Origin: a virus
Taxonomy: Duplodnaviria > Heunggongvirae > Uroviricota > Caudoviricetes
Virus record (IMG/VR): IMGVR_UViG_2778261164_000008
DNA length: 24,703 nucleotides
Direction: 5' to 3' (one strand)
The notes under the pieces were generated by a model. It was given only the letters and a program-made list of their open reading frames with translations, did no database searches and was not told the DNA's origin. A program made the position numbers and the translations under genes. Below are positions 1 to 14,173 of the stretch, piece after piece. Numbering within the stretch: position 1 is the stretch's first letter; every line of letters begins with the position of its first letter.

Positions 1-1053
1 TTACGGGGTAATGCCAACCGCTGCCGCCACTTTGTCGCCACTTGGCAGCGTTGCCAGAGGATTGAAACGGAGCGCCGTTTCTAGATGATCCGGTGCCAGA
101 TGTGCGTAACGCATAGTCATTTTTATATCGTGGTGTCCGAGAATTTTTTGTAAGGCCAGAATGTTTCCACCCGACATCATGAAGTGCGCCGCAAACGTAT
201 GGCGCAGAACGTGTGTGAGTTGACCGCGAGGGAGCACGATAGACGTTTTTTCCATCACGGATAAAAATTGAAAATAGCAGTCTGTGAAGAAATTGAACCC
301 ATCAAGCGCCATGATCTCTTCGTAAAGCTCTTTACTGATAGGGATGCTTCTGTTTTTCTTCCCCTTCGTTCTGACAAAGGTAATTCGGTATTTGGTCACC
401 TGTGAGCGGGTAAGATTTACGGCTTCACGCCAGCGTGCGCCTGTGCTTAAGCATATCTTAACTACCAGTGCCAGAATTGGGTCCTGACGTTTGCAATCAG
501 CCAGCAATTCAACAATCTGCTCATGGGTAAGCCATGCCATCTCTTTTTCTGCGATGGTGAATTTTCGCATGTTCTCCAGTGGGTTCGGATACGACCATTC
601 GCCCAGACGGGATAGTTCGCTAAAAACACTACTTAGATAGCTTTGCTCTAGGTTAATGGTGACCGGGCTTGCTCCTTTCTTCCATTTCTCGCTGAAGTAG
701 ATCTCGCCTGTCAGGCGTTTATCTCGATAGTGGGCAAACATTTTAGAGGTGAGATCGGTTGCAAGAGGATTGCCCAGAGCGTCAACCATCAACAGCAATT
801 TGTCATAGACATGCTGCCCAGCTGTCAGAGATTTACCATGTAGTTTGAACCATAGCTCAACCACGTCTTTCAGTGTTCGACGATCCACTGATTCACCCAG
901 CCAGGGCTTTGCTTCGGTTTCTTCCATCGTGTGGCGCTCAAAAGCCAGTGCTTCGCCTTTGGTAGCGAATTGTTTACGCACACGACGCCCACTTCGTCCG
1001 GCGGGGTAACATTCGCAAAGCCATTTCCCTGTGGTTAGTTTTCGTACTGCCAT
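1..1053 (-). CDS. int: Phage integrase, tyrosine recombinase (P2/186 Int family)
   Basis: 350-aa ORF with ATG at 1051-1053 and stop at 1-3. N-terminus MAVRKL...KQFATKGEALAFE and C-terminal LTHVLRHTFAAHFMMSGGNILALQKILGH...MTMRYAHLAP match the 186/P2 integrase pattern as I recall it (R..H..R..Y catalytic region). Confidence 0.9.
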   Translation of the reverse strand: MAVRKLTTGKWLCECYPAGRSGRRVRKQFATKGEALAFERHTMEETEAKPWLGESVDRRTLKDVVELWFKLHGKSLTAGQHVYDKLLLMVDALGNPLATDLTSKMFAHYRDKRLTGEIYFSEKWKKGASPVTINLEQSYLSSVFSELSRLGEWSYPNPLENMRKFTIAEKEMAWLTHEQIVELLADCKRQDPILALVVKICLSTGARWREAVNLTRSQVTKYRITFVRTKGKKNRSIPISKELYEEIMALDGFNFFTDCYFQFLSVMEKTSIVLPRGQLTHVLRHTFAAHFMMSGGNILALQKILGHHDIKMTMRYAHLAPDHLETALRFNPLATLPSGDKVAAAVGITP

Positions 1054-1135: not shown

Positions 1136-2812
1136 CTAAGCAACATGTAGTTCATCGTTGGCGGAAGTGGCTGCTTTGCGCTCCTGCTCAATAGCTAGAG
1201 ACTCTCTATATTCTTTCGCCTCTGCAAACATTGTCCAGTGGGCGTTGATGTTCATGTCTTCAATAACTGATTTGATTTCTTTTAAATTTACGTTAAAAAA
1301 CTCTTTTCGTGAGTTAATTTTATTGACCTGCTTTTCGTTGAAAACTTTATGCAGATGGTTTTCTAATGATGGTGCATCATCACTATAAATCATCGCATGA
1401 ACATCGAACGAAAAAGGAACACTAGCATCTCCGAGTTCACGAACACGATCAAGTGGTTCAAGGCGGCGTGTCATTCCAATTTTATATACATCTTCGCCAA
1501 ATGAACCAATATTACTAATGATATAGACGTGGCCTGATCTGGTTTGTTGAGCCATAGAAATAGCTCGTTGATTTTTAGCTTCAGCTTCTTCATATTTTAA
1601 CTGTAGTTCAGCTATTTTTTGCTCTAAAGCTAAGCGTTGTTCTTCATTTGCAAGCATAAGTTCTTTCGTTGCTTTATTTATAGCTTGCTGAATAGCTTTT
1701 TCTTCTTTTTCAGCTTCTTTTATCGCTTTTTCATATTCCCTACGAGCTCTTTCCTCTTCACGAAGCTGTTCTTTAATCCTTCTTTGCTCTTCTTTTTCTT
1801 CGAGCATAATTTCATTAACTGCTACACCCCATTTTAGCTCGTTGAGTCTTGCCTGAAGATAGATGTCACTTATTTTTGCGGATCTAAAGGCAGAGCCATT
1901 GTAATTTACTAGTTGAAATGCATCTTTTATTTCTTGGGAAAGTTTTCCAAAATTGTTGTGTTTGACTTTTGATAAAATACTGTCAACTCTTCCATTGAAG
2001 GCATCCAAAACAAAGTTTATGGCAGTATTACGCCTGTTTTGCTCAACATAATCACACGAAGCAGCTTTATTAGTTTTTATTAATGATTTGGTTAACTCTC
2101 TGGCTTTTTGTAATTCCTTGCCTGCATCTGTAAATTCATAATTTTCTGCCAGCTCATCAAGTACACTACGGTTAGGGATGATCCATTCATCACCATAACC
2201 TTCAATTTTATTTTTCATTGATTTTGCAACTGCTTCATATTTTTCTGCAAACTCTTTAGCTTCATATGCTGAACCAGCAATCTCCTTTGCTCTTTCTTCT
2301 GCATCAGAAATAATTTTTACTGCATTGTCATTAGCATTTGAGATTAGCTCATTTGCTTTATTATTAGCATTATCAAGACGTTCTTTGGCTTTCAGGCGTG
2401 CATCGCGAGCGTCTTTGGTGATTGCTATAGCTTCGCTATTAGCGTTGCTTATTGTCATCTGAGCTTGATAATTTGCTTCGTTTACTGTTTTAGCCGCCTT
2501 AATTTGGGCTTCATCTATTTTTTGCTTGGCTATTGAGTCCGCATTTTTTATCTTATTCTCTGCATCCATTACTGCGCTGTGCAATTCTTCGTATTGCCAC
2601 AATGGTGCTGCTCGCCCTTCAAGCTCTGATAATTCTCGTACGGTCTGTGCTAGTTTTTCTTGATTTTCAATCAGTTGGTTAGAAAGGGCTATGTTGTTAG
2701 CTGTCAGGTTATCTATAGCCGCTTTGTGTTTTTTACTTTGTTTAAATAATATTACAGCTAGAACAGGGGCGAGAAATGCTAATAAGAGTATAACGATGGC
2801 AAATGAATTCAT
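1136..2812 (-). CDS. Membrane-anchored coiled-coil protein with C-terminal T5orf172/GIY-YIG-like domain (DUF4041-like architecture); cargo gene
   Basis: 558-aa ORF, ATG at 2810-2812 with an AAGGA Shine-Dalgarno about 8 nt upstream on the minus strand. Hydrophobic N-terminus (MNSFAIVILLLAFLAPVLAVILF), long K/E/A-rich coiled-coil-like middle, C-terminal GHVYIISN...YKIGMTRRLEPLDRVRELG resembling the T5orf172/MUG113 GIY-YIG-like motif. Visibly AT-rich relative to flanking phage genes. Confidence 0.8.
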   Translation of the reverse strand: MNSFAIVILLLAFLAPVLAVILFKQSKKHKAAIDNLTANNIALSNQLIENQEKLAQTVRELSELEGRAAPLWQYEELHSAVMDAENKIKNADSIAKQKIDEAQIKAAKTVNEANYQAQMTISNANSEAIAITKDARDARLKAKERLDNANNKANELISNANDNAVKIISDAEERAKEIAGSAYEAKEFAEKYEAVAKSMKNKIEGYGDEWIIPNRSVLDELAENYEFTDAGKELQKARELTKSLIKTNKAASCDYVEQNRRNTAINFVLDAFNGRVDSILSKVKHNNFGKLSQEIKDAFQLVNYNGSAFRSAKISDIYLQARLNELKWGVAVNEIMLEEKEEQRRIKEQLREEERARREYEKAIKEAEKEEKAIQQAINKATKELMLANEEQRLALEQKIAELQLKYEEAEAKNQRAISMAQQTRSGHVYIISNIGSFGEDVYKIGMTRRLEPLDRVRELGDASVPFSFDVHAMIYSDDAPSLENHLHKVFNEKQVNKINSRKEFFNVNLKEIKSVIEDMNINAHWTMFAEAKEYRESLAIEQERKAATSANDELHVA

Positions 2813-2832: not shown

Positions 2833-3429
2833 TTAATTCGAGACTATTGTACTTCTTATACAAGCAACCACTTCAATATCAGAAAATGCACATTCAAAGC
2901 TATTCTCTGCTGTTGTAATTTTAATCATTCCTTTAGGAAGCCTTGTGATTTTTCGAATGGAATAGGTTCCGTCGATATTGATTAACCAGTTTCCATCAAG
3001 TACTTCAGAAAATTTTTGATCACAAATGTATGTGACGAGTCCATCCTGAACAACAATTGGTGATGAAAGGTTTGCAGGAAGAAATGATGAATCGAAGACA
3101 TATGAACCGTCTTCAATCATTTTGCCTGCGGCAAGGCGAAACTTAACAAGCTCTTCTGTAGCTGCTGTCAGCGAGCTTTGCTTAAGGCCTTGTCCGGTAG
3201 TTAACCATTTGAGGGAGGTTCCTGTTTCAAGAGCACATTGGATTATCCAGTCAGCAGGAAATGTATCCCGCAAATACCTGTTCGCTAGTGTGCTTTTTGA
3301 TACTTCCAAGTGATCAGCTAAAGCCTGTCGTGTCGTAAAGCCATAGGCTTCGACTAATCGCTCAATCGCAGCCTTACCACCTTTATTGGGATTTATTTTG
3401 ATCTCACTTGGGTACTTTGATGTTGACAT
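2833..3429 (-). CDS. cI: Phage immunity repressor CI (186-type)
   Basis: 198 aa, ATG at 3427-3429. N-terminal segment ...VEAYGFTTRQALADHLEVSKSTLANRYLRD...CALETGTSLKWLTTGQG resembles the 186 CI HTH region as I recall it; C-terminal FECAFSDI also similar. Divergent from apl/cII as in the 186 switch. Confidence 0.8.
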   Translation of the reverse strand: MSTSKYPSEIKINPNKGGKAAIERLVEAYGFTTRQALADHLEVSKSTLANRYLRDTFPADWIIQCALETGTSLKWLTTGQGLKQSSLTAATEELVKFRLAAGKMIEDGSYVFDSSFLPANLSSPIVVQDGLVTYICDQKFSEVLDGNWLINIDGTYSIRKITRLPKGMIKITTAENSFECAFSDIEVVACIRSTIVSN

Positions 3430-5579: not shown

Positions 5580-6433
5580 GCACCATCCTGAAATGGGCGG
5601 GAAATAAAACCGCCATTATGCCAGAACTGAAAAAATACCTTCCTGCTGGCCCGCGACTGGTTGAACCTTTCGCGGGTTCCTGTGCTGTGATGATGGAAAC
5701 GGATTATCCCAGCTATCTGGTTGCGGATATTAATCCTGATTTAATCAACCTCTATAAAAAGGTTGCCGCTGATTGTGAATCGTTTATATCTCGCGCCAGA
5801 GTTTTATTTGAGATCGCAAACAGGGAGGTGGCTTATTACAACATAAGGCAGGAGTTTAACTGCTCAACTGAAATTACTGATTTCATGAAAGCGGTATATT
5901 TCCTGTATCTCAATCGTCACGGTTACCGTGGTTTATGTCGCTATAACAAGAGCGGGCATTTCAACATTCCCTACGGTAATTATAAAAATCCGTATTTCCC
6001 TGAAAAAGAACTTCGCACATTTGCAGAAAAAGCCCAGCGAGCAACGTTTATCTGCGCCAGCTTTGATGAAACGCTGGCGATGTTGAAGGCGGGAGATGTG
6101 GTGTATTGCGATCCGCCATATGACGGTACGTTTTCCGGCTATCACACTGATGGTTTCACTGAAGATGACCAGTATCACCTGGCATCCGTTCTTGAACATC
6201 GGTCATCAGAAGGACATCCGGTCATTGTTTCTAACAGTGACACATCCCTGATCCGTTCGCTGTATCGCAATTTTACTCACCACTATATCAAGGTAAAACG
6301 CAGCATCGGTGTGGCAGCTGGCGAGGGTAAATCAGCAACAGAAATCATTGCTGTTTCCGGGCCGCGCTGCTGGATGGGATTTGATTATTCGCGTGGCGTG
6401 GATAGTTCTGCCGTGTACGGAGTACGTGCATGA
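5576..6433 (+). CDS. dam: DNA adenine methyltransferase (Dam-like, GATC-type N6-adenine MTase)
   Basis: ATG at 5576 with GGAGGT RBS at 5565-5570. N-terminal LKWAGNK...EPFAGS (AdoMet-binding motif) and catalytic DPPY at CDPPYDGTF. Stop overlaps the gene A start (ATGA). Confidence 0.9.
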
Positions 6434-8844
6434 GTCATGCCGATATGAACAACTGCTGCGGCTTTAACGAGGCTGCCGCAGCATTCTCATGGAACAGCCC
6501 GAAAAAGGCCATTAACCCTTATCTGGACCCGGCGGAAGTTGCGCCGGTTTCTACGCTTTCAAACCTGATCACTCTGTACGCTGCCGATAACGAGCAGGAA
6601 CAGTTGCGCCGCGAGGCACTGAGTGATCAGGTCTGGGAGCGTTATTTCTTTAATGAATCACGTGATCCTGTCCAGCGCGAAATGGAGCAGGATAAGCTCA
6701 TTAGCCGGGCAAAGCTGGCGCATGAGCAGCAGCGTTTTAATTCAGACATGGTCATTCTGGCGGACGTCAACGCCCAGCCTTCCCATATCAGCAAGCCGCT
6801 GATGCAACGTATTGAATACTTCAGCAGCCTGGGCAGGCCAAAGGCTTATTCCCGCTATTTACGTGAGACGATTAAGCCATGTCTGGAACGACTGGAGCAT
6901 GTACGCGACAGTCAGCTATCTGCATCTTTTCGCTTTATGGCAAGCCATGAAGGGCTGGACGGCCTGCTGATCCTGCCTGAAATGAGTCAGGATCAGGTGA
7001 AACGCCTGTCCACCCTGGTAGCTGCGCATATGAGTATGTGCCTTGATGCAGCTTGTGGTGATTTGTATGCCACCGATGACGTTAAGCCAGAAGAAATCCG
7101 CAAGACATGGGAAAAGGTGGCAGCGGAAACCCTGCGTCTGGATGTCATCCCACCTGCGTTTGAGCAACTCCGTCGGAAAAGAAACCGCCGTAAACCCGTG
7201 CCCTATGAACTCATTCCGGGTTCGCTGGCGCGTATGTTGTGCGCCGACTGGTGGTATCGGAAATTATGGAAGATGCGTTGCGAATGGCGGGAAGAGCAGT
7301 TGCGCGCTGTTTGCCTGGTCAGCAAAAAAGCATCTCCTTATGTCAGCTATGAAGCCGTGATGCATAAACGTGAGCAGCGCCGTAAGTCGCTGGAGTTTTT
7401 CCGTTCTCATGAACTGGTGAACGAAGACGGCGACACGCTGGACATGGAGGATGTGGTAAACGCCAGCAGCAGCAACCCTGCGCATCGCCGCAATGAGATG
7501 ATGGCCTGTGTTAAAGGTCTGGAGCTTATCGCGGAAATGCGCGGTGACTGCGCCGTTTTCTACACTATCACCTGTCCGTCGCGTTTCCATTCCACGCTAA
7601 ATAACGGCAGACCAAACCCGACCTGGACAAACGCGACGGTAAGACAAAGCAGCGATTATCTGGTCGGCATGTTTGCTGCATTTCGTAAGGCGATGCACAA
7701 AGCCGGGTTGCGCTGGTATGGCGTGCGGGTGGCTGAGCCGCATCATGATGGCACAGTTCACTGGCACCTGTTGTGTTTCATGCGCAAAAAAGACCGCCGT
7801 GCCATCACTGCATTACTGCGTAAGTTTGCCATCCGTGAAGACCGCGAGGAGCTGGGCAATAACACTGGGCCGCGCTTTAAGTCTGAGTTGATTAACCCGC
7901 GCAAAGGAACGCCGACAAGCTACATCGCGAAATATATCAGTAAGAACATTGACGGTCGTGGTCTGGCTGGCGAGATCAGCAAGGAAACGGGTAAATCTCT
8001 GCGTGATAACGCTGAATACGTGAATGCCTGGGCGTCTCTGCATCGTGTTCAGCAATTCCGCTTCTTTGGTATTCCGGGGCGTCAGGCTTACCGTGAACTT
8101 CGCTTGCTGGCTGGTCAGGCGGCAAGGCAACAGGGTGACAAAAAAGCAGGTGCGCCGGTACTGGATAACCCGCGTCTTGATGCCATTCTGGCTGCTGCTG
8201 ATGCTGGTTGTTTTGCCACCTACATCATGAAGCAGGGCGGCGTACTGGTTCCCCGTAAATATCACCTCATCAGAACCGCTTATGAAATCAACGAAGAGCC
8301 GACCGCCTATGGCGATCACGGCATTCGTATTTATGGCATCTGGTCACCCATTGCAGAGGGCAAGATCTGCACTCATGCAGTGAAGTGGAAAATGGTTCGT
8401 AAAGCCGTTGACGTTCAGGAGGCGGCAGCCGACCAGGGCGCTTGCGCCCCTTGGACTCGTGGCAATAACTGTCCCCTTGCTGAAAATTTGAACCAACAGG
8501 AGAAAGATAAATCAGCTGATGGGGACCCCAGAACGGACATTACCAGCATGGATGACAAGGAGTTGCACGATTACCTGCACAGTATGAACAAAAAAGAGCG
8601 CCGGGAACTGGCTGCAAGGTTACGCCTGGTGAAACCGAAACGGCGTAAAGACTACAAACAGCGAATTACAGACCATCAGCGACTGCAGCTCGTGTATGAG
8701 CTGAAGTCCAGAGGATTTGATGGCAGCGAGAAAGAGGTCGATTTACTCCTTCGCGGAGGCAGTATTCCGTCAGGAGCAGGCCTGCGTATCTTCTATCGGA
8801 ACCAGCGTTTGCAAGAAGATGATCAGTGGCGGAACCTGTATTAA
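6430..8844 (+). CDS. A: Replication initiation endonuclease gpA (rolling-circle, P2 A family)
   Basis: 804 aa; contains [10 protein letters not shown] (HxH metal-binding motif of the rolling-circle initiator) and a YIAKYISK tyrosine region; size and position match P2/186 gene A. Confidence 0.9.
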
Positions 8845-8936
8845 TTACGCGGGTTAACAATTCGTGCTCTTAATAATACCAGGCATATCAGGCTGATGAA
8901 CGTAAAAAAACGTTTTACATCAGTAAGATTATTATA

Positions 8937-8956
8937 TACTGTAAATATAAACAGTG
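8937..8956. promoter_or_regulatory. LexA (SOS) box
   Basis: TACTGTAAATATAAACAGTG contains CTGT-N8-ACAG with an AT-rich spacer, about 40 bp upstream of the 8998 start codon. Confidence 0.75.
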
Positions 8957-8997
8957 GTTATACGTACAGTATTGCGTGTGGTGTCATAGGAGGAAAG

Positions 8998-9186
8998 ATG
9001 CAGGACTATTTTTTGGAGTCTTTGAAGCTCCAGCGCATTGATTTTTTTCTTAAGCTTGTAGCGGCTAGTGAGTGTAGTGATGAAGAGAAGGGGCTGGCTC
9101 TGCAGTGGGTTTCTGAATTGACTGATGAACTCATGGCAAAAATCAGAACCCACGAATACAACCGCTCAATGGATGTCATCAGCTGA
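8998..9186 (+). CDS. Small SOS-regulated protein (possibly Tum-like antirepressor N-terminal part)
   Basis: ATG at 8998 preceded by GGAGGAAAG; 62 aa; directly downstream of the LexA box, in the position of the 186 tum operon. Confidence 0.5.
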   Translation: MQDYFLESLKLQRIDFFLKLVAASECSDEEKGLALQWVSELTDELMAKIRTHEYNRSMDVIS

Positions 9187-9196
9187 GGTGACTTTT

Positions 9197-9430
9197 ATGC
9201 GCATTGAAATAATGATCGATAAAGAGCAGAAGATTAGCCAGTCTACCCTGGACGCCCTTGAATCCGAGCTTTACCGCAATCTGCGCCCCCTGTATCCCAA
9301 AACGGTAATTCGCATTCGCAAAGGTAGCTCTAACGGTGTGGAACTAACCGGACTGCAACTGGACGAAGAAAGAAAACAAGTGATGAAAATTATGCAGAAG
9401 GTGTGGGAAGACGACAGCTGGCTGCATTAA
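9197..9430 (+). CDS. DinI-like protein
   Basis: ATG at 9197 with GAGGTG RBS; 77 aa MRIEIMIDKEQ...LDALESELYRNL...KVWEDDSW resembles E. coli DinI in length and pattern (MRIEV...ETWE..W). Confidence 0.8.
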   Translation: MRIEIMIDKEQKISQSTLDALESELYRNLRPLYPKTVIRIRKGSSNGVELTGLQLDEERKQVMKIMQKVWEDDSWLH

Positions 9431-9565
9431 GAAACGTTGCTGGCGCCTGAACTTGCTTCTGGCGTCAGCAAGGTTGAACAACGAGCCCTTGCGAGGCGTT
9501 AGCTCTGTAGTGCATGTCTATGCCGCATGAGATCGCATGATCGTTTGAGGATCGTTTTTGCTAAG

Positions 9566-9590
9566 GCCCGCCAGAACTGGCGGGCTTTTG
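9566..9590 (+). terminator. Rho-independent terminator
   Basis: GCCCGCCAG-aa-CTGGCGGGC perfect 9-bp stem followed by TTTT, downstream of the DinI-like gene. Confidence 0.7.
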
Positions 9591-9634
9591 CGTAGATCAT
9601 GCAGGTGCATGAAAACCACTACATAAAGCGGGCA

Positions 9635-9653
9635 GGCGTGGCGGGGATACGAG
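9635..9653. other. Candidate cos (cohesive end) site of the P2/186 type
   Basis: GGCGTGGCGGGGATACGAG; the first 13 nt match the 186 cohesive end as I remember it (GGCGTGGCGGGGA...) and a GCGCGCT block follows, as in the P2 left end. Recalled, not searched. Confidence 0.4.
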
Positions 9654-9692
9654 CGCGCGCTACCGCTTTTAGGATTATGCTGTTCAAAAACA

Positions 9693-9721
9693 TTGACTGC
9701 TATGCTAATTTAAGATTAATC
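9693..9721 (+). promoter_or_regulatory. Weak candidate promoter for the two-gene cargo cassette
   Basis: TTGACT at 9693-9698 followed 16-17 bp later by ATTAAT/TTAATC, upstream of the 9758 start. Confidence 0.3.
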
Positions 9722-9757
9722 CCAAAATGGAAGCAATTATTTTCGTAAGGAAAGAAA

Positions 9758-10576
9758 ATGCGAGTTAATTACGATGTTATTATCAAAAGCGGCGATGATG
9801 AAGTAGATATGGAATACGGTCTCGACACGCTTGCAGGAACTGCAGAGGTTACTTGCTTGTTGGCGGAGGCTATACTTAGGAAAGTAATAATAAAGCGCCG
9901 CTCTCATGTAAATCCTGCAAGGGCTGTACTCAAGAGGAATTTCACCGGTTCTTATGGTCAAAATTTTGACTTGGTTATTAATGATGCTGAACTGGTATCA
10001 GAACTTCGCAAAATATCTAAACCAGTATTTAATGAAGTGATGAGTTTCTTTATTTCGCAATCATTATATTTAGAGAGTCGCGAACTTTCCAATGAAGCGG
10101 AAGAAGTAGTTAAAGGTTTATCGGATATTGAGGATGAGTTGATAGGTCGTATTCGAGCTCCTCTAAAAAGAATGCATGAAATTAATCTCAAAAAAAACTA
10201 TAATATCGAGTTAAACTTTAAACAGCGTGCCCATGATAAGAAAAAAGTAATTGAATTAGATACATCTACTGCAACAAATTTATTCACATCACGTGTTTTA
10301 AAAAAGACTGAAGTAATCAGGGCTTATATTACAAGATTTAATGCTCGCACTGGCAATGGTAGGCTTGTTCTTGAGGGCGAAAATGATACGGTGGCATTTG
10401 GGTTTTATAGCCCCTTACGTGTCATCATTCCAGCTCAAAAAAGAATGATTTCGGCTAACTTACATGTAAATAATCCGCCTTCCACTGCTGGCTATATTTA
10501 TCTTGAACTGACTGTAAGTCGGGTAATAATTAACAGTGGGGAAACTGTGAAATATTTAGTGCATACGGTGCAGTAA
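9758..10576 (+). CDS. Hypothetical soluble protein, gene 1 of AT-rich two-gene cargo cassette
   Basis: 272-aa ORF, ATG at 9758 with AAGGAAAG RBS; AT-rich; no family recognised by eye. Confidence 0.7.
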   Translation: MRVNYDVIIKSGDDEVDMEYGLDTLAGTAEVTCLLAEAILRKVIIKRRSHVNPARAVLKRNFTGSYGQNFDLVINDAELVSELRKISKPVFNEVMSFFISQSLYLESRELSNEAEEVVKGLSDIEDELIGRIRAPLKRMHEINLKKNYNIELNFKQRAHDKKKVIELDTSTATNLFTSRVLKKTEVIRAYITRFNARTGNGRLVLEGENDTVAFGFYSPLRVIIPAQKRMISANLHVNNPPSTAGYIYLELTVSRVIINSGETVKYLVHTVQ

Positions 10577-10577
10577 G

Positions 10578-11324
10578 ATGTTAAAAATAATTTGTTTAGC
10601 TCTCATAATAATAGTTTTGGGGGTTTATTGTATTAAGTTTGGCCCCTGGTACTTAAGTACTCAAGATGCTGATGTTTGGGGGCAATTTGGGGACTTCATG
10701 GGTGGGGTCCTGAATCCTATACTAAGTTTTATCTCGATTTGCCTGCTGATTCGCTCTGTAACTTTACAAGTGCAGTCTAACTCAACATTGAAACAAGAGA
10801 TAAAAAGACAAGAGTTACTTGAAGATTACAAAAAATTTGAAGTGAGGTTTTTCTGTCTAATTGAATCTCAAGATTCTAATTATAATAAATTGCGTATTGT
10901 AATCGGTAATGGAGCAGATAATGATGATGAAAGTAAAGGGGGGGGGACCAAAGAACCTACACTTATTGAGTATAGATCTAATAATGCTATAACTTTCATT
11001 GATGATAACTTGAGCATCTTGGTTAGAGCTGGAATAGAAAAGAAAAGAATCATTGCATGGTTGGAAAGTTTAGATGTTGATGATCATTTTTTCTCTTTGG
11101 TAAGAAGATTTTATCTTTTGGTGAAGTTGATAGATGATAAAGTTGAAAGTGAAAAAAAAGCTGAGCAATATGAGCTGTTAATAAATATGACTGATGAAAA
11201 GCTTTTGACTATGATTGTTATTCTTTGTGAGTATTTTGATTGGGCAAATGTTTTGTATATTAAAAATAGTGGAATCATAGAGCAGGCTAAAATGGATGAC
11301 TATATTTCTAATTATAGAAACTAA
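10578..11324 (+). CDS. Hypothetical membrane protein (2 predicted N-terminal TM helices), gene 2 of cargo cassette
   Basis: ATG at 10578, 1 nt after the upstream stop (translational coupling). N-terminal hydrophobic segments LKIICLALIIIVLGVYCIKF and GGVLNPILSFISICLLI; the rest is charged and soluble-looking. Confidence 0.7.
   Translation: MLKIICLALIIIVLGVYCIKFGPWYLSTQDADVWGQFGDFMGGVLNPILSFISICLLIRSVTLQVQSNSTLKQEIKRQELLEDYKKFEVRFFCLIESQDSNYNKLRIVIGNGADNDDESKGGGTKEPTLIEYRSNNAITFIDDNLSILVRAGIEKKRIIAWLESLDVDDHFFSLVRRFYLLVKLIDDKVESEKKAEQYELLINMTDEKLLTMIVILCEYFDWANVLYIKNSGIIEQAKMDDYISNYRN
10938..10946 (+). repeat. G9 homopolymer tract inside the membrane-protein gene
   Basis: ggggggggg at 10938-10946 (encodes KGGG) inside an otherwise AT-rich gene. 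Confidence 0.9.
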
Positions 11325-11375: not shown

Positions 11376-12407
11376 TTAATTATCTAAAGTGTATTGGGTG
11401 AATGAAATAATTTTTTCGCCCACCCAAGAATTAACTTCTTTTAATCGCCCTTGTAGATAAATTAATTCATTACGTACAAATACCAGACTGGCCTTCTCCA
11501 CATCTCCAAACCCACCTACATTGCTCGGCATAATCCCCATCATTTGCGGCGGCACACGGTGTGCAGCCATCATGTCGTCCCGGCTCACGTTCTTGATGTT
11601 CAGAAATTCATCCTTCGCTGCGACTTCTGACAGCGGGATGATCTGAAGCCCGTCCTTTTTGCCGTTAGGCGAGTACATAAACAGGTTGCGGAAGTTGCCT
11701 GGACCTTTGGCGCTTTTCATCGCGTTGCGGAGGTTGTTCACATCTTCCTGGTTCTGCGCGGCGTCGGTCATATACATGATGAAGCCAGCATGACTGCCGT
11801 TAATGTAATACTTTCGACGGAACAGCGTGGCGGACTCATTGAGCAGGGCGGACGGAATGGCAGAAAGATAGCCGGGCAAGCCGTAGATCTCCTGGTTAAT
11901 GTCCGGTTCCATCAGATGAAAAATGCTGCCTTTCGTGAACTGATATGGCTGGGTTGTCATACCGTATTGCACAAACCAGTAGGTATCCAGGTCTAACCCG
12001 CGTCGGGTGTATTTTGCCAGCGCAGGCTCAAGGGCGATAACTTCACCGAAGCGGTTCGTGCGTTTCTCCAGGTAGGCGTTACCAAAAACCAGATAGTCCT
12101 GCACAAAACGCGAAAAAGCCTGCTGGCTGAGCAGCGGGTGAGGGATGTAGGTGCTGGTCAAAATGTTGCATTTCACCGCAATCGGTGAGCTGTGATGCAC
12201 GGCGGCGCGGAAGGTTCGTGCCAGTCCGTCAAAGCTGACGGGCGGCTCATACCAGCGATCCATCTGTACGCATTCCACATAGTCCAGCAGTTCGCGGCGG
12301 TCCAGAACAGGAACGGGATCACCGAAGCTGAATGCTTCGGCTGAAGTCTGGCTTTTATGCTGGTTCTGGTTCGTCGACGCAGCGCGGTTCTTCTTACTCT
12401 TTCCCAT
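11376..12407 (-). CDS. Q: Portal protein gpQ
   Basis: 343 aa from ATG at 12405-12407, which overlaps the P stop (TGATG); the track ORF starts one codon earlier at a TTG. Size matches P2 Q (~344 aa); position downstream of terminase P on the leftward strand. Confidence 0.9.
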   Translation of the reverse strand: MGKSKKNRAASTNQNQHKSQTSAEAFSFGDPVPVLDRRELLDYVECVQMDRWYEPPVSFDGLARTFRAAVHHSSPIAVKCNILTSTYIPHPLLSQQAFSRFVQDYLVFGNAYLEKRTNRFGEVIALEPALAKYTRRGLDLDTYWFVQYGMTTQPYQFTKGSIFHLMEPDINQEIYGLPGYLSAIPSALLNESATLFRRKYYINGSHAGFIMYMTDAAQNQEDVNNLRNAMKSAKGPGNFRNLFMYSPNGKKDGLQIIPLSEVAAKDEFLNIKNVSRDDMMAAHRVPPQMMGIMPSNVGGFGDVEKASLVFVRNELIYLQGRLKEVNSWVGEKIISFTQYTLDN

Positions 12408-14173
12408 CAAAAAATCTCCACAATATTGCTGGCATTGGCGGACTCGCCCTGCAGCGGTTCGTTAAACAGTGCGTGCATTGTTGCCCAGGCCAGATCGGCA
12501 TGGCTGGCTTCTTCGCTGCGGCTGGCTTCATAGGTCGGGCGGTTGCCGCTGGCGGTGGTGGCGCGACGGATTGCCATGAATGACTGCGCAATGTCGGTGT
12601 GTCCGGCGTCAAATTCCAGGCGGCGGTGACTGATAATGTCGTAGGCCTTGAGTACCAGGGCGTTTTTAACGTTGGGGTTGTAGACAAACTCCCGGACGGC
12701 AGGAAAAAACGCTTTCACGTTCTCGTAAACCCCGTGACCGACGCCGGTCGAGTCGATGCCGATATAGGTCACGTTATACTGTTCGGTCAGTTTTTTGATG
12801 GCGTCAGCCTGGGCGCGGAAGTCCATTCCGCGCCACTGGTGACGCTCAAGAATGCGGAACTTACCGCCCGGCACGACTGGCGGTGCCACCACCACGCATC
12901 CGGCGCTGTCGCCGTTCTGCGTACCTTTTGCCGGGTCATAACCGATCCACACTTCGCGCCAGCCAAACGGGCGCAGGGCCAGTGCATGAAAGTCGGTCCA
13001 GACTTCCCAACTGTCCACCATGCACGCCTGCAGCTCGCTGAGCGGGAACACGGACGCGAGATCGTCCACGAACTCACACATCAGCAGGTTCTGGTATTCG
13101 TCCGGGCTGTATTCCATGCGCAACTGGTCAAGGTCGAACAGGTTACAGCCGCCGCGCACCGCATCTTCTACGGTGACTATCTGGCGGTATTGCCCGTCTG
13201 CGCACAGCAGGCCGGGGGCCAGATTGCTGTGGGACAGGTCGATGTCCACCTTGTCGGCTTTGTTGCGTCCACGGTTGAACAGCGCACCGGACCAGAACGG
13301 ATAAGCACTGTGGGTCAGGCTGGATGGCGTGGAAAAATAGGTTTGTCGCCATTTTTTGTGAATAGCCATACCGGAAGCCACTTTGCGCAGCTCCTGGAAT
13401 TTCGGTATCCAGAAATATTCATCCAGATACAGGTTGCCGTGGTAACTCTGGGCAGTGCGAGCATTGGTGCCGAGGAAATACAGTGTGGCCCCGTTGGGAA
13501 GCACCATCGGATCGCCTTTCAGCTCCACTTCCACTTCTTTGGCGAAGTCGATGATGTACTGCTTAAAGACGTGCGCCTGTGCCTTACTGGCAGAAAGGAA
13601 AATCTGGTTACGTCCGGTTAGCAGGGCGTCAATCAGGGCTTCACGGGCAAAATAGAAGGTCGCGCCGATCTGGCGTGACTTCAGCAGGTTGCGGATGCGG
13701 TTGGTTTTTCCGGCTTCCCACCAGTGACGCTGGTAGTTGAACATGGAGGAATGGAAGATTTCTTCCAGCTTCTCAATCTGTTCATCGGTGAAAACATTCT
13801 TTTCAGGCTGACGGCGCGGGCCTTTGTTGCGGTTGGCGACGTTAGGGTTTAAATCGGCTTCGTTGCCGCCATTGTTAAACTTGCCGATCCGCGCGTGGCG
13901 CTCCGACTGGCGCGCCAGCAGATCAATTTCTTTGAAATCTTTCCCTTCTTTGTGCTCCTTCATAATGAGCTGGCAGTAACGTGCGGCGGTGGTGAGCTGC
14001 ATCTGATCCAGCGGCCCATAGTCACCCCACTTGTCGCGTTTTTTCCAGCTGTGAACGGTTGCAACTTTCTCGCCCAGCATTTCAGCAATGCGGGCGACGC
14101 GGTATCCCTGAAAGTACAGCAGCATGGCCTGCCGACGGGGATCGAGATCTGCGGGTGTCAGTGTGGTGTTCAT
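12407..14173 (-). CDS. P: Terminase large (ATPase) subunit gpP
   Basis: 588 aa, ATG at 14171-14173; size and synteny with Q, O, N, M match P2 gpP (~590 aa). Confidence 0.9.
   Translation of the reverse strand: MNTTLTPADLDPRRQAMLLYFQGYRVARIAEMLGEKVATVHSWKKRDKWGDYGPLDQMQLTTAARYCQLIMKEHKEGKDFKEIDLLARQSERHARIGKFNNGGNEADLNPNVANRNKGPRRQPEKNVFTDEQIEKLEEIFHSSMFNYQRHWWEAGKTNRIRNLLKSRQIGATFYFAREALIDALLTGRNQIFLSASKAQAHVFKQYIIDFAKEVEVELKGDPMVLPNGATLYFLGTNARTAQSYHGNLYLDEYFWIPKFQELRKVASGMAIHKKWRQTYFSTPSSLTHSAYPFWSGALFNRGRNKADKVDIDLSHSNLAPGLLCADGQYRQIVTVEDAVRGGCNLFDLDQLRMEYSPDEYQNLLMCEFVDDLASVFPLSELQACMVDSWEVWTDFHALALRPFGWREVWIGYDPAKGTQNGDSAGCVVVAPPVVPGGKFRILERHQWRGMDFRAQADAIKKLTEQYNVTYIGIDSTGVGHGVYENVKAFFPAVREFVYNPNVKNALVLKAYDIISHRRLEFDAGHTDIAQSFMAIRRATTASGNRPTYEASRSEEASHADLAWATMHALFNEPLQGESANASNIVEIF

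What the first reader, a model, noticed from the sequence alone, without database searches (positions are those of the whole stretch)
8937..9430. SOS-controlled module: LexA box upstream of a small ORF and a DinI-like gene
A near-consensus LexA operator (CTGT-N8-ACAG) precedes two small genes, the second clearly DinI-like. This matches the 186 strategy of prophage induction through a LexA-repressed antirepressor (tum) operon, rather than the non-inducible P2 arrangement, and predicts that the prophage is UV/SOS-inducible. The two ORFs lie in different frames and overlap from 9125 to 9186 (the second frame is open from 9125). Their combined length (62 + 77 aa) is close to my recollection of 186 Tum (~146 aa), so they could be a split or frameshifted tum-like gene.
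Basis: partly seen in the sequence, partly recalled or inferred. Interest (0 to 1): 0.5.

Follow-up and report, generated by a model that had tools for sequence, protein, structure and literature searches.

The report
SOS-controlled split Tum antirepressor operon
This is the DNA-damage switch of a Fels-2/186-like prophage: a LexA-repressed promoter drives a small antirepressor gene and then a DinI-like gene, and the arrangement has already been described and tested genetically in nearly identical prophages.

Summary
A single LexA box, TACTGTAAATATAAACAGTG (8937-8956), lies 42 nt upstream of a 62-aa gene (8998-9186). A 77-aa DinI-family gene (9197-9430) follows after a 10-nt spacer.

The window is a P2-like prophage with 186-type immunity: its CI has no peptidase domain, and CII is present. 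The module is 97-99.6% identical to that of Salmonella phage Fels-2 and of the E. coli HS prophage DuoHS.

ORF1 shows no BLASTP similarity to 186 Tum. A profile of its diverse relatives nevertheless matches the N-terminal antirepressor half of Tum (E 2e-13; hhalign 96.8%). ORF2 matches the C-terminal DinI half (41% identity). So this is the "split tum" already described for Fels-2 and PSP3 (tumA/tumB).

It is not a frameshift or sequencing error. Each gene has its own ribosome-binding site, and the layout recurs in over 800 E. coli genomes. All 66 family representatives are stand-alone proteins, and some distant relatives have no DinI gene at all.

Published deletion primers for DuoHS "tum" match the borders of ORF1 exactly. 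That deletion, and lexA(Ind-), abolish mitomycin C induction.

Verdict: correct, ordinary and already known. One side observation is mildly interesting: an almost invariant antirepressor accompanies CI repressors that are only 41-55% identical.

The parts
8914..8919 (+). Candidate -35 hexamer TTTACA of the SOS promoter (the analogue of 186 p95)
   Evidence: Read from the sequence. It lies 17 bp upstream of TACTGT (8937-8942) and 15 bp upstream of TATACT (8935-8940). The annotated 186 p95 has TTCACA, an 18-bp spacer, then TACTGT, and that -10 forms the first 6 bases of its LexA site. The consensus promoter scan did not call it, so the assignment is inferred.
8937..8956 (+). LexA operator (SOS box) TACTGTAAATATAAACAGTG, overlapping the candidate -10 and start region
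   Evidence: It is the only CTGT-N8-ACAG in the window. It has 3 mismatches to the 20-mer consensus, and 0 of 100 shuffles matched as well. The box is identical in Fels-2 and DuoHS. A LexA box sits at the same place in 7 divergent loci although the flanking DNA is not conserved.
8988..8993 (+). Shine-Dalgarno sequence AGGAGG of ORF1
   Evidence: Read from the sequence. It ends 4 nt before the ATG at 8998.
8998..9186 (+). tum / tumA-like antirepressor gene (62 aa, acidic, predicted helical hairpin)
   Evidence: Family and homology:
- It matches phrog_698 at 3.6e-38, with cross-hits to the TumA/Tum-N families phrog_8554 and phrog_1993.
- A family profile scores 186 Tum residues 5-48 at 36.3 bits, E 2e-13, and hhalign gives 96.8%.

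Orthologues:
- It is 61/62 identical to Fels-2 STM2728 and to DuoHS ECHS_RS04495.
- The DuoHS delta-tum primers match its exact borders.

Structure: the AF2 model has helices 2-23 and 28-61 at pLDDT 86.7.
9185..9190 (+). Shine-Dalgarno sequence GAGGTG of ORF2, overlapping the ORF1 stop codon
   Evidence: Read from the sequence. It is invariant in Fels-2 and DuoHS.
9197..9430 (+). DinI-family gene (77 aa; tumB-like; equivalent to the C-terminal half of 186 Tum, also made separately there from an internal GTG start)
   Evidence: - Pfam DinI at 6.6e-23 and phrog_189 at 1.5e-29.
- 41% identity to 186 Tum residues 71-145, E 3e-24.
- 78% identity to PSP3 TumB, and 100% to the Fels-2 and DuoHS copies.
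- E. coli DinI (PDB 1GHH) at E 2.7e-6, aligned from residue 1.
9433..9475 (+). G+C-rich hairpin just after the DinI-like gene, without a U-run (possible partial terminator or RNA-stabilising element)
   Evidence: RNA fold of 9425-9600: -71.2 kcal/mol, z = -3.9 against shuffles. Any function is inferred by analogy with 186 t95a.
9560..9596 (+). Probable intrinsic terminator of the SOS operon (GGCCCGCCAG-AACU-CUGGCGGGC followed by UUUUGCG)
   Evidence: Seen in the fold. The segment 9512-9660 is 96% identical to the region downstream of the orf97 homologue in Fels-2 and DuoHS. The simple terminator scan did not call it.
2833..3429 (-). 186-type CI immunity repressor, the presumed target of the antirepressor
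   Evidence: - Pfam Phage_CI_repr at 8.2e-32 plus Phage_CI_C at 3.5e-27, with no peptidase S24 domain.
- 32% identity to 186 CI, E 3e-34.
- 55% identity to DuoHS CI.
- 100% identity to the CI of phage vB_EcoM-813R9.

Best explanation
The region is the SOS (induction) operon of a Fels-2-like member of the 186 branch of P2-like phages (Peduoviridae).

Proposed mechanism:
1. In an undamaged lysogen, host LexA binds the single SOS box at 8937-8956. The box overlaps the -10/start region of a p95-like promoter, so the operon stays silent.
2. DNA damage activates RecA, LexA cleaves itself, and the promoter fires.
3. The first product is a 62-aa acidic helical-hairpin protein homologous to the N-terminal half of 186 Tum. 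It binds the prophage's 186-type CI repressor, which has no autocleavage domain, and prevents it from holding the lytic promoter. The prophage therefore switches to lytic growth.
4. The second product is a DinI homologue. It acts on RecA filaments and modulates the strength or duration of the SOS signal.
5. Transcription ends at the hairpin and terminator at 9433-9596.

In 186 the two functions are fused in one 146-aa Tum, and the DinI half is also made separately from an internal start. Here, as in Fels-2, DuoHS and PSP3, they are two cistrons.

Basis of each step:
- Shown here: sequence anatomy, homologies and conservation.
- Shown by others on near-identical DNA: dependence of induction on tum and on cleavable LexA.
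- Inferred: LexA occupancy of this box, physical TumA-CI binding for this particular CI, and the role of the DinI-like protein.
For: LexA box:
- It is a significant match and unique in the window.
- It is conserved upstream of the tum-like gene in 7 divergent loci whose flanks have diverged.
- The architecture is the same as the annotated 186 p95/LexA site.

Homology of the two genes:
- An ORF1 family profile matches 186 Tum residues 5-48 at 36.3 bits, E 2e-13, whereas the best of 2000 shuffled controls scored 7.7 bits. hhalign gives 96.8%, E 3e-10. PHROG cross-hits run in both directions.
- ORF2 is DinI-like.

Context:
- CI is 186-type without an S24 domain, and CII is present.
- The gene sits immediately downstream of replication gene A, as in 186, PSP3 and Fels-2.
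- The same CI-CII-Fil-A-LexA box-tum layout is found in distant relatives.

Experimental evidence from orthologues:
- The module is about 98% identical to DuoHS, with an identical LexA box.
- The delta-tum primers NHR24 and NHR28 equal window 8978-9000 and 9184-9206.
- Delta-tum and lexA(Ind-) abolish mitomycin C induction (PMC12055606).
- Fels-2 and PSP3 are described as having tum split in two, with the upstream PSP3 gene carrying the antirepressor activity (PMC3121763).
- lexA-null survivors in Salmonella LT2 had all lost Fels-2 (Bunny 2002, as summarised in PMC12626290).
- 186 Tum inhibits CI after LexA derepression of p95 (PMC7708051).
Against: - There is no direct pairwise similarity between ORF1 and 186 Tum or PSP3 TumA. 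The profile score against PSP3 TumA is only marginal (E 0.0017).
- The window's CI is only 55% identical to DuoHS CI and 41.5-44% identical to Fels-2 CI. That this antirepressor neutralises this particular CI is therefore inferred.
- The consensus promoter scan found no sigma-70 promoter, so the exact -10 is uncertain (TACTGT or TATACT).
- The window lacks the orf97 gene that belongs to the 186, Fels-2 and DuoHS operon.
- Nothing here tests whether the prophage as a whole is intact.
Confidence: 0.9

Rival explanations
1. The two ORFs are a broken 186-type tum. A single fused gene was interrupted by a frameshift, a stop mutation or a sequencing error, leaving a pseudogene and a non-inducible prophage.
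For: - The combined length, 62 + 77 aa, approaches that of 186 Tum at 146 aa.
- The second frame is open back to 9125.
- The two halves are homologous to the two halves of Tum.
Against: - Each cistron has its own Shine-Dalgarno sequence and ATG, with a 10-nt spacer.
- The same arrangement is found in Fels-2, DuoHS, 813R9 and 49 phage records, and at full length in 828 E. coli genomes.
- All 66 representatives of the ORF1 family at 50% identity are short stand-alone proteins. None carries a DinI domain.
- Distant relatives have the tum-like gene with no DinI gene at all.
- Deleting only the 62-aa gene abolishes induction in DuoHS, so the gene is functional.
- The stretch 9125-9196 in the ORF2 frame has no counterpart in DinI homologues.
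Confidence: 0.02
2. The operon is an SOS-regulated accessory (moron) locus. The DinI-like protein serves the host's SOS modulation, and ORF1 is an unrelated small protein. Induction of this prophage does not depend on the operon.
For: - ORF1 has no Pfam, PDB or PADLOC match and is annotated as hypothetical in RefSeq.
- Non-polar dinI deletions in Gifsy prophages had no effect on induction (PMC3121763).
- The CI here differs from the CIs for which genetic data exist.
Against: - Profile homology to the Tum antirepressor half.
- Strict linkage with 186-type CI in all loci examined.
- The delta-tum phenotype in DuoHS, with a 61/62-identical protein.
Confidence: 0.05
3. The CTGT-N8-ACAG palindrome is a chance match in AT-rich intergenic DNA, and the genes are expressed by read-through from the early lytic operon (gene A), not under LexA control.
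For: - The bare 16-mer pattern is expected 0.27 times per window by chance.
- No consensus promoter was called.
- The gene lies only 153 nt downstream of gene A on the same strand.
Against: - The 20-mer match was never reached in 100 shuffles.
- The box is the only conserved block upstream of tum-like genes in 7 loci with otherwise unrelated promoter DNA.
- Exactly one match per tum-containing locus lies right upstream of the gene.
- The lexA(Ind-) phenotype in DuoHS, which has the identical box.
Confidence: 0.02

Closest known systems
E. coli HS prophage DuoHS tum (ECHS_RS04495) plus its DinI-like gene (ECHS_RS04500); Nat Microbiol 2025, PMC12055606
   Same: The promoter, LexA box, both genes and the spacer are about 98% identical in DNA. 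The two proteins are 61/62 and 77/77 identical. The genomic position after gene A is the same. Induction there was shown genetically to need tum and cleavable LexA.
   Different: CI is only 55% identical. DuoHS carries an orf97-like gene after the DinI gene that the window lacks. The downstream cargo also differs.
Salmonella phage Fels-2 STM2728 + STM2726.1 (split tum; Bunny et al. 2002, Lemire et al. 2011)
   Same: 97% DNA identity. The proteins are 61/62 and 77/77 identical, and the LexA box is identical. The literature describes it as tum split into two halves.
   Different: CI is 41.5-44% identical. Fels-2 keeps the orf97 homologue STM2726.
Phage PSP3 tumA / tumB
   Same: The two-cistron layout is the same, behind a LexA box and after gene A. 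TumB is 78% identical to ORF2. The upstream gene is reported to carry the antirepressor activity.
   Different: TumA is only about 19% identical to ORF2's partner ORF1, with no BLASTP hit. It belongs to a different PHROG, 1993 rather than 698. In PSP3 the two genes are in the same frame, 3 nt apart. Here they are in different frames, 10 nt apart.
Coliphage 186 p95-tum-orf97 SOS operon (Tum antirepressor, 146 aa)
   Same: - A LexA box overlaps the -10 of a promoter after gene A.
- The N-half is homologous to ORF1 by profile.
- The C-half is 41% identical to ORF2.
- The cognate repressor is a 186-type CI.
- 186 also makes the DinI half separately from an internal start.
   Different: 186 has one fused gene, not two. 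ORF1 is about 19% identical to the Tum N-half. orf97 is absent from the window.
Gifsy-1/2/3 dinI-gfoA/gftA LexA-controlled antirepressor operons (Lemire et al. 2011)
   Same: The logic is the same: a LexA box, a DinI homologue and a small antirepressor that inactivates a non-cleavable repressor.
   Different: The gene order is reversed, with dinI first. The phages are lambdoid with an unrelated repressor family, and no sequence relationship of the antirepressors to ORF1 was found.
E. coli chromosomal DinI (PDB 1GHH)
   Same: ORF2 aligns over its full length from residue 1 and shares the C-terminal acidic W-E-x-x-D-W end. Both are LexA-regulated.
   Different: The sequence similarity is low (E 2.7e-6). 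The window's gene is phage-borne and co-transcribed with an antirepressor.

Membership tests
Tum / TumA-type antirepressor of 186-like Peduoviridae | Sequence homology to the N-terminal (non-DinI) half of 186 Tum | tested here: met
   Pairwise BLASTP is negative. A profile of 31 diverse ORF1 relatives hits 186 Tum residues 5-48 at 36.3 bits, E 2e-13, against 7.7 bits for the best of 2000 shuffles. hhalign gives 96.8%, E 3e-10. PHROG cross-hits are reciprocal.
Tum / TumA-type antirepressor of 186-like Peduoviridae | Transcription from a LexA-repressed promoter (SOS box overlapping the promoter) | tested here: met
   The box at 8937-8956 is present and statistically significant. It is conserved across divergent loci. 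LexA binding itself was not testable. lexA(Ind-) blocks induction in DuoHS, which carries the identical box.
Tum / TumA-type antirepressor of 186-like Peduoviridae | Location directly downstream of replication gene A, at the end of the early region of a P2-like genome | tested here: met
   Gene A (Phage_GPA, 5.6e-128) ends at 8844 and ORF1 starts at 8998. The order is the same in 186, PSP3, Fels-2, DuoHS and L014-L016.
Tum / TumA-type antirepressor of 186-like Peduoviridae | Cognate 186-type CI repressor that lacks a RecA-stimulated autocleavage (S24) domain | tested here: met
   The window CI matches PF07022 and PF16452 only. It is 32% identical to 186 CI.
Tum / TumA-type antirepressor of 186-like Peduoviridae | Binds CI and reversibly prevents operator binding; required for SOS induction | not testable with these tools
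   Biochemistry is known for 186 Tum (Shearwin 1998, as cited in PMC3121763 and PMC7708051). The genetic requirement was shown for the 61/62-identical DuoHS protein.
DinI family (Pfam PF06183) | Match to the family model above the curated threshold over the whole domain | tested here: met
   81.3 bits against a cut-off of 24.2, covering profile positions 1-63 of 63.
DinI family (Pfam PF06183) | Full-length collinearity with E. coli DinI, including the acidic C-terminal helix | tested here: met
   Residues 1-75 align to 1GHH residues 1-77, E 2.7e-6. The C-terminal end reads VWEDDSW against TWESADDW.
DinI family (Pfam PF06183) | Binds RecA filaments and modulates coprotease activity | not testable with these tools
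   Known for E. coli DinI (references cited in PMC3121763). No data exist for the phage copy.
P2-type non-inducible immunity (C repressor / Cox, no SOS operon) | P2 C-type repressor and absence of a LexA-controlled antirepressor | tested here: not met
   The repressor is a 186-type CI and CII is present. A LexA box and a tum-like gene are present.

The most novel reading that the evidence does not exclude
The Fels-2-type TumA may act as a "master-key" antirepressor. Essentially one protein (98-100% identical) is carried by prophages whose CI repressors are only 41-55% identical overall. The CI N-terminal DNA-binding domains are 67-77% identical and the C-terminal domains 25-42%.

If the protein works on all of these CIs, it must recognise a conserved surface, most likely in the N-terminal domain. 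One SOS-induced TumA would then cross-induce co-resident heteroimmune Fels-2-like prophages.

This is supported only indirectly:
- The same protein is genetically required in DuoHS, and Fels-2 is LexA-controlled.
- Across 7 phages, TumA identity tracks CI N-domain identity (rho 0.64) but not C-domain identity (rho 0.08). The pairs are not independent.

The alternative is plain mosaicism, meaning recent exchange of immunity regions.
Probability: 0.3. Interest if true: 0.4.

Novelty: already known. Interest (0 to 1): 0.1.

Why it matters
For annotation, the result shows that this prophage belongs to the SOS-inducible 186/Fels-2 branch and not to the non-inducible P2 type. DNA-damaging antibiotics should therefore induce it.

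It also shows that the 62-aa "hypothetical protein" annotated in over a thousand E. coli genomes is the Tum-type antirepressor.

It adds no new biology. The split tum arrangement was described in the literature that Lemire et al. 2011 cite (Bunny et al. 2002), and its function was tested genetically in 2025 on nearly identical DNA.

The only forward-looking point is the pairing of a near-invariant antirepressor with diverged repressors. This suggests testable cross-induction between heteroimmune prophages.

Tried and rejected
- **BLASTP.** ORF1 against 186 Tum and PSP3 TumA gave no alignment. A first hhalign with shallow alignments (Neff 1.5) gave only 15% probability. Homology became clear only after the diverse representatives were collected.
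- **Family and structure libraries for ORF1.** Pfam, PDB sequences and PADLOC gave nothing.
- **AlphaFold2 and Foldseek.** The model is a confident helical hairpin. Foldseek against PDB returned only generic helical hairpins, with no hit at E <= 0.001, so this says nothing about mechanism.
- **Consensus scans.** The promoter scan found no sigma-70 promoter. The terminator scan missed the 9560-9596 hairpin and called a weak one inside the ORF1/ORF2 junction, which I regard as chance.
- **Rfam** on 8700-9900 gave only a chance-level lncRNA hit at E 0.35.
- **A second LexA site.** The TACGTACAGTA stretch at 8962-8972 has no CTGT half-site, so it was rejected.
- **The 96-aa ORF** starting at 8896 was rejected. 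That start lies upstream of the promoter and LexA box, and the extension is absent from diverse homologues.
- **Minus-strand ORFs** 8932-9153 and 9006-9179 have no support.
- **Literature.** Bunny et al. 2002 (PMC151935) is not held in the library, so its content is cited only through PMC3121763 and PMC12626290. A literature search for TumA/TumB returned only noise.

Full report
**1. What is in the sequence**

The region lies immediately after the replication gene A of a P2-like prophage (6430-8844; Pfam Phage_GPA, E 5.6e-128). The intergenic DNA contains one CTGT-N8-ACAG motif, at 8939-8954, and it is the only one in the 24.7-kb window.

As a 20-mer, TACTGTAAATATAAACAGTG (8937-8956) differs from the enterobacterial SOS-box consensus at three non-core positions. 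No match of that quality appeared in 100 dinucleotide shuffles.

Two genes follow:

| Gene | Coordinates | Length | Ribosome-binding site |
|---|---|---|---|
| ORF1 | 8998-9186 | 62 aa | AGGAGG, 4 nt upstream of the ATG |
| ORF2 | 9197-9430 | 77 aa | GAGGTG, overlapping the ORF1 stop codon |

A 10-nt spacer separates them and they are in different frames. However, DinI homologues all begin at the MRIE... of 9197, so the overlap is not real.

Downstream, the RNA folds into a G+C-rich hairpin (9433-9475) and a canonical stem plus U-run (9560-9596). The fold has z = -3.9 against shuffles.

**2. Identity of the two genes**

ORF2 is a DinI-family protein:
- Pfam PF06183, 81 bits.
- E. coli DinI structure 1GHH, E 2.7e-6, aligned from residue 1.
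- 41% identity to residues 71-145 of 186 Tum.
- 78% identity to PSP3 TumB.

ORF1 has no Pfam, PDB or PADLOC match. It also has no BLASTP similarity to 186 Tum or PSP3 TumA.

PHROG profiles gave the first link. ORF1 belongs to phrog_698 and also touches phrog_8554 and phrog_1993. The N-half of 186 Tum hits all three, and PSP3 TumA defines phrog_1993.

I then collected 66 representatives of the ORF1 family at 50% identity and built a profile from 31 clean, diverse members. It shows the conserved motif M-x-D-L-F-x-E-S-x-x-L-Q-R-I-x-L-x-x-R-L-V-A-x3-C-x3-D-K-E-L-A-L-x-W-x-x-E-L-T. That profile scores 186 Tum at 36.3 bits (E 2e-13 for the single comparison), aligning residues 5-47 with 5-48. The best of 2000 shuffled Tum N-halves scored 7.7 bits. 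hhalign against a Tum-N family alignment gave 96.8% probability, E 3e-10.

ORF1 is therefore a diverged homologue of the antirepressor half of Tum, and ORF2 is a homologue of the DinI half. An AlphaFold2 model of ORF1 is a helical hairpin (helices 2-23 and 28-61, pLDDT 86.7) with the conserved Cys26 in the turn. The protein is acidic, with 12 D/E against 7 K/R. Foldseek found nothing specific.

**3. Context**

- The prophage has a 186-type immunity region. The repressor at 2833-3429 (-) matches Phage_CI_repr plus Phage_CI_C, has no S24 peptidase domain, and is 32% identical to 186 CI.
- A CII (CP76) homologue is present, and the integrase lies at 1-1053 (-).
- This is the regulatory background in which an antirepressor is needed for SOS induction.

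**4. Relatives**

- The 801-bp segment is 99.6% identical to Escherichia phage vB_EcoM-813R9, 97% to Salmonella phage Fels-2 and 95-97% to many Klebsiella phages.
- It is present in 1281 of 5426 complete E. coli genomes, and in 828 of them at full length.
- In Fels-2 the genes are STM2728 and STM2726.1. The latter is annotated as similar to PSP3 TumB.
- PSP3 annotates tumA ("similar to 5' end 186 tum; UV induction of prophage") and tumB.
- 186 annotates p95, its LexA site overlapping the -10 hexamer TACTGT, tum with internal starts, a partial terminator, orf97 and a final terminator.
- The window has the same design: TTTACA, a 17-bp spacer, then TACTGT, which forms the first six bases of the box. 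A TATACT hexamer two bases upstream is an alternative -10, and the consensus scan called neither.

In more distant homologues (35-55% identical TumA), the gene again directly follows gene A in prophages with a 186-type CI, CII and Fil. A LexA box is again the one conserved block in otherwise unrelated upstream DNA. This is a phylogenetic footprint for the operator. Three of these loci have no DinI gene at all, and all 66 family representatives are short stand-alone proteins. The antirepressor and DinI are thus separable modules. The fused 186 gene is one variant and not the norm.

**5. Experimental evidence in the literature**

As summarised in PMC12626290, rare lexA sulA survivors of Salmonella LT2 had all lost Fels-2.
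- The most direct evidence comes from the Phollow study, which deleted "tum" in the E. coli HS prophage DuoHS. Delta-tum and lexA(Ind-) both abolish mitomycin C-induced lysis and virion foci (PMC12055606).
- Its deletion primers (supplement) read GTGGTGTCATAGGAGGAAAGATG + TGA and ATG + TGAGGTGACTTTTATGCGCATTG. These match window 8978-9000 and 9184-9206 without mismatch. The gene deleted there is thus exactly the orthologue of ORF1, and the DinI gene was left in place.
- DuoHS's module is about 98% identical to the window, with an identical LexA box. The proteins are 61/62 and 77/77 identical.
- For 186, induction by LexA derepression of p95 and Tum inhibition of CI is established (PMC7708051).

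**6. Mechanism and what remains inferred**

The proposed sequence is:
1. LexA represses the promoter.
2. After DNA damage, the operon is transcribed.
3. The TumA-like protein inactivates the non-cleavable CI, and the prophage enters lytic growth.
4. The DinI-like protein modulates RecA and the SOS response.

Three points are inferred and not shown:
- LexA binding to this site.
- The exact promoter elements.
- That this TumA neutralises this window's CI, which is 55% identical to DuoHS CI and 41.5-44% to Fels-2 CI.

**7. Rivals**

- A frameshifted or pseudogenised fused tum is contradicted by the conservation, the separate ribosome-binding sites, the stand-alone family members and the DuoHS genetics.
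- A chance LexA-like palindrome is contradicted by the cross-locus conservation.
- An induction-irrelevant moron is contradicted by the homology, the linkage to 186-type CI and the delta-tum phenotype.

**8. Side observation**

The tum module is nearly invariant (95-99.6% in DNA) across phages whose CI is 41-55% identical to the window's. The CI N-terminal domains are 67-77% identical and the C-terminal domains 25-42%.

In seven phages, TumA identity correlates with CI N-domain identity (Spearman 0.64) but not with C-domain identity (0.08). This rests on non-independent pairs and a small sample. The pattern is compatible either with a TumA that recognises a conserved N-domain surface, which would allow cross-induction, or with recombinational mosaicism. 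It is not resolved here.

**9. Verdict**

The feature is a known, experimentally characterised kind of element, so interest is low.

Noticed in passing
window 8937-9430 versus 2833-3429, with phage records: The tum module is 95-99.6% identical in DNA across phages whose CI repressors are only 41-55% identical to the window's. The CI N-domains are 67-77% identical and the C-domains 25-42%. This suggests either an antirepressor that recognises a conserved CI surface, which would allow cross-induction of heteroimmune prophages, or recent mosaic exchange.
   Followed up: partly
window 1136-2812 (-): A 558-aa gene sits between the integrase and cI. It has DUF4041 and T5orf172/MUG113 domains and matches the PD-Lambda-1 anti-phage defence model at E 2.4e-120. 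It looks like defence cargo in the int-cI slot. The distant relative L014 carries an SMC_N/AAA_15 ATPase at the same position.
   Followed up: partly
window 9758-10576 and 10578-11324 (+): A two-gene cassette of unknown function (phrog_13337, phrog_8999; no Pfam family) lies between the SOS operon and the portal gene Q (11376-12410, -). This is the variable cargo slot of P2-like phages. The only PADLOC hit is a weak ZorB/MotB-like N-terminal match for the second protein, E 3.3e-4. Relatives carry other cargo here, for example GAPS4-like genes in L016.
   Followed up: partly
window 9431-9511: The window lacks the orf97 homologue that follows the DinI gene in 186, Fels-2 (STM2726) and DuoHS. Window 9512-9660 resumes homology with the DNA downstream of that gene. 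Phage vB_EcoM-813R9 shares the window's arrangement.
   Followed up: partly
loci L008/L014, L009, L013/L015: Distant TumA-like genes (35-45% identical) sit behind gene A with a LexA box but no DinI gene. The late activator ogr/delta gene follows on the opposite strand instead. The DinI partner is therefore dispensable for this operon type.
   Followed up: yes
window 8896-9186; database clusters P0005, P0007, P0008 and others: Many public gene calls extend ORF1 to 84-101 aa by starting at upstream ATGs that lie before the promoter and LexA box. RefSeq names the 62-aa protein "hypothetical protein", and one UniRef cluster calls it "Levan regulatory protein". The published function as the Tum antirepressor has not reached the annotation.
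   Followed up: no
window 8957-8975: The window, Fels-2 and DuoHS have an extra stretch of about 15 nt (GGTTATACGTACAGTATT) between the LexA box and the ribosome-binding site. More distant loci lack it. It resembles a partial repeat of the right half of the box (TACAGTA) but has no CTGT partner.
   Followed up: no
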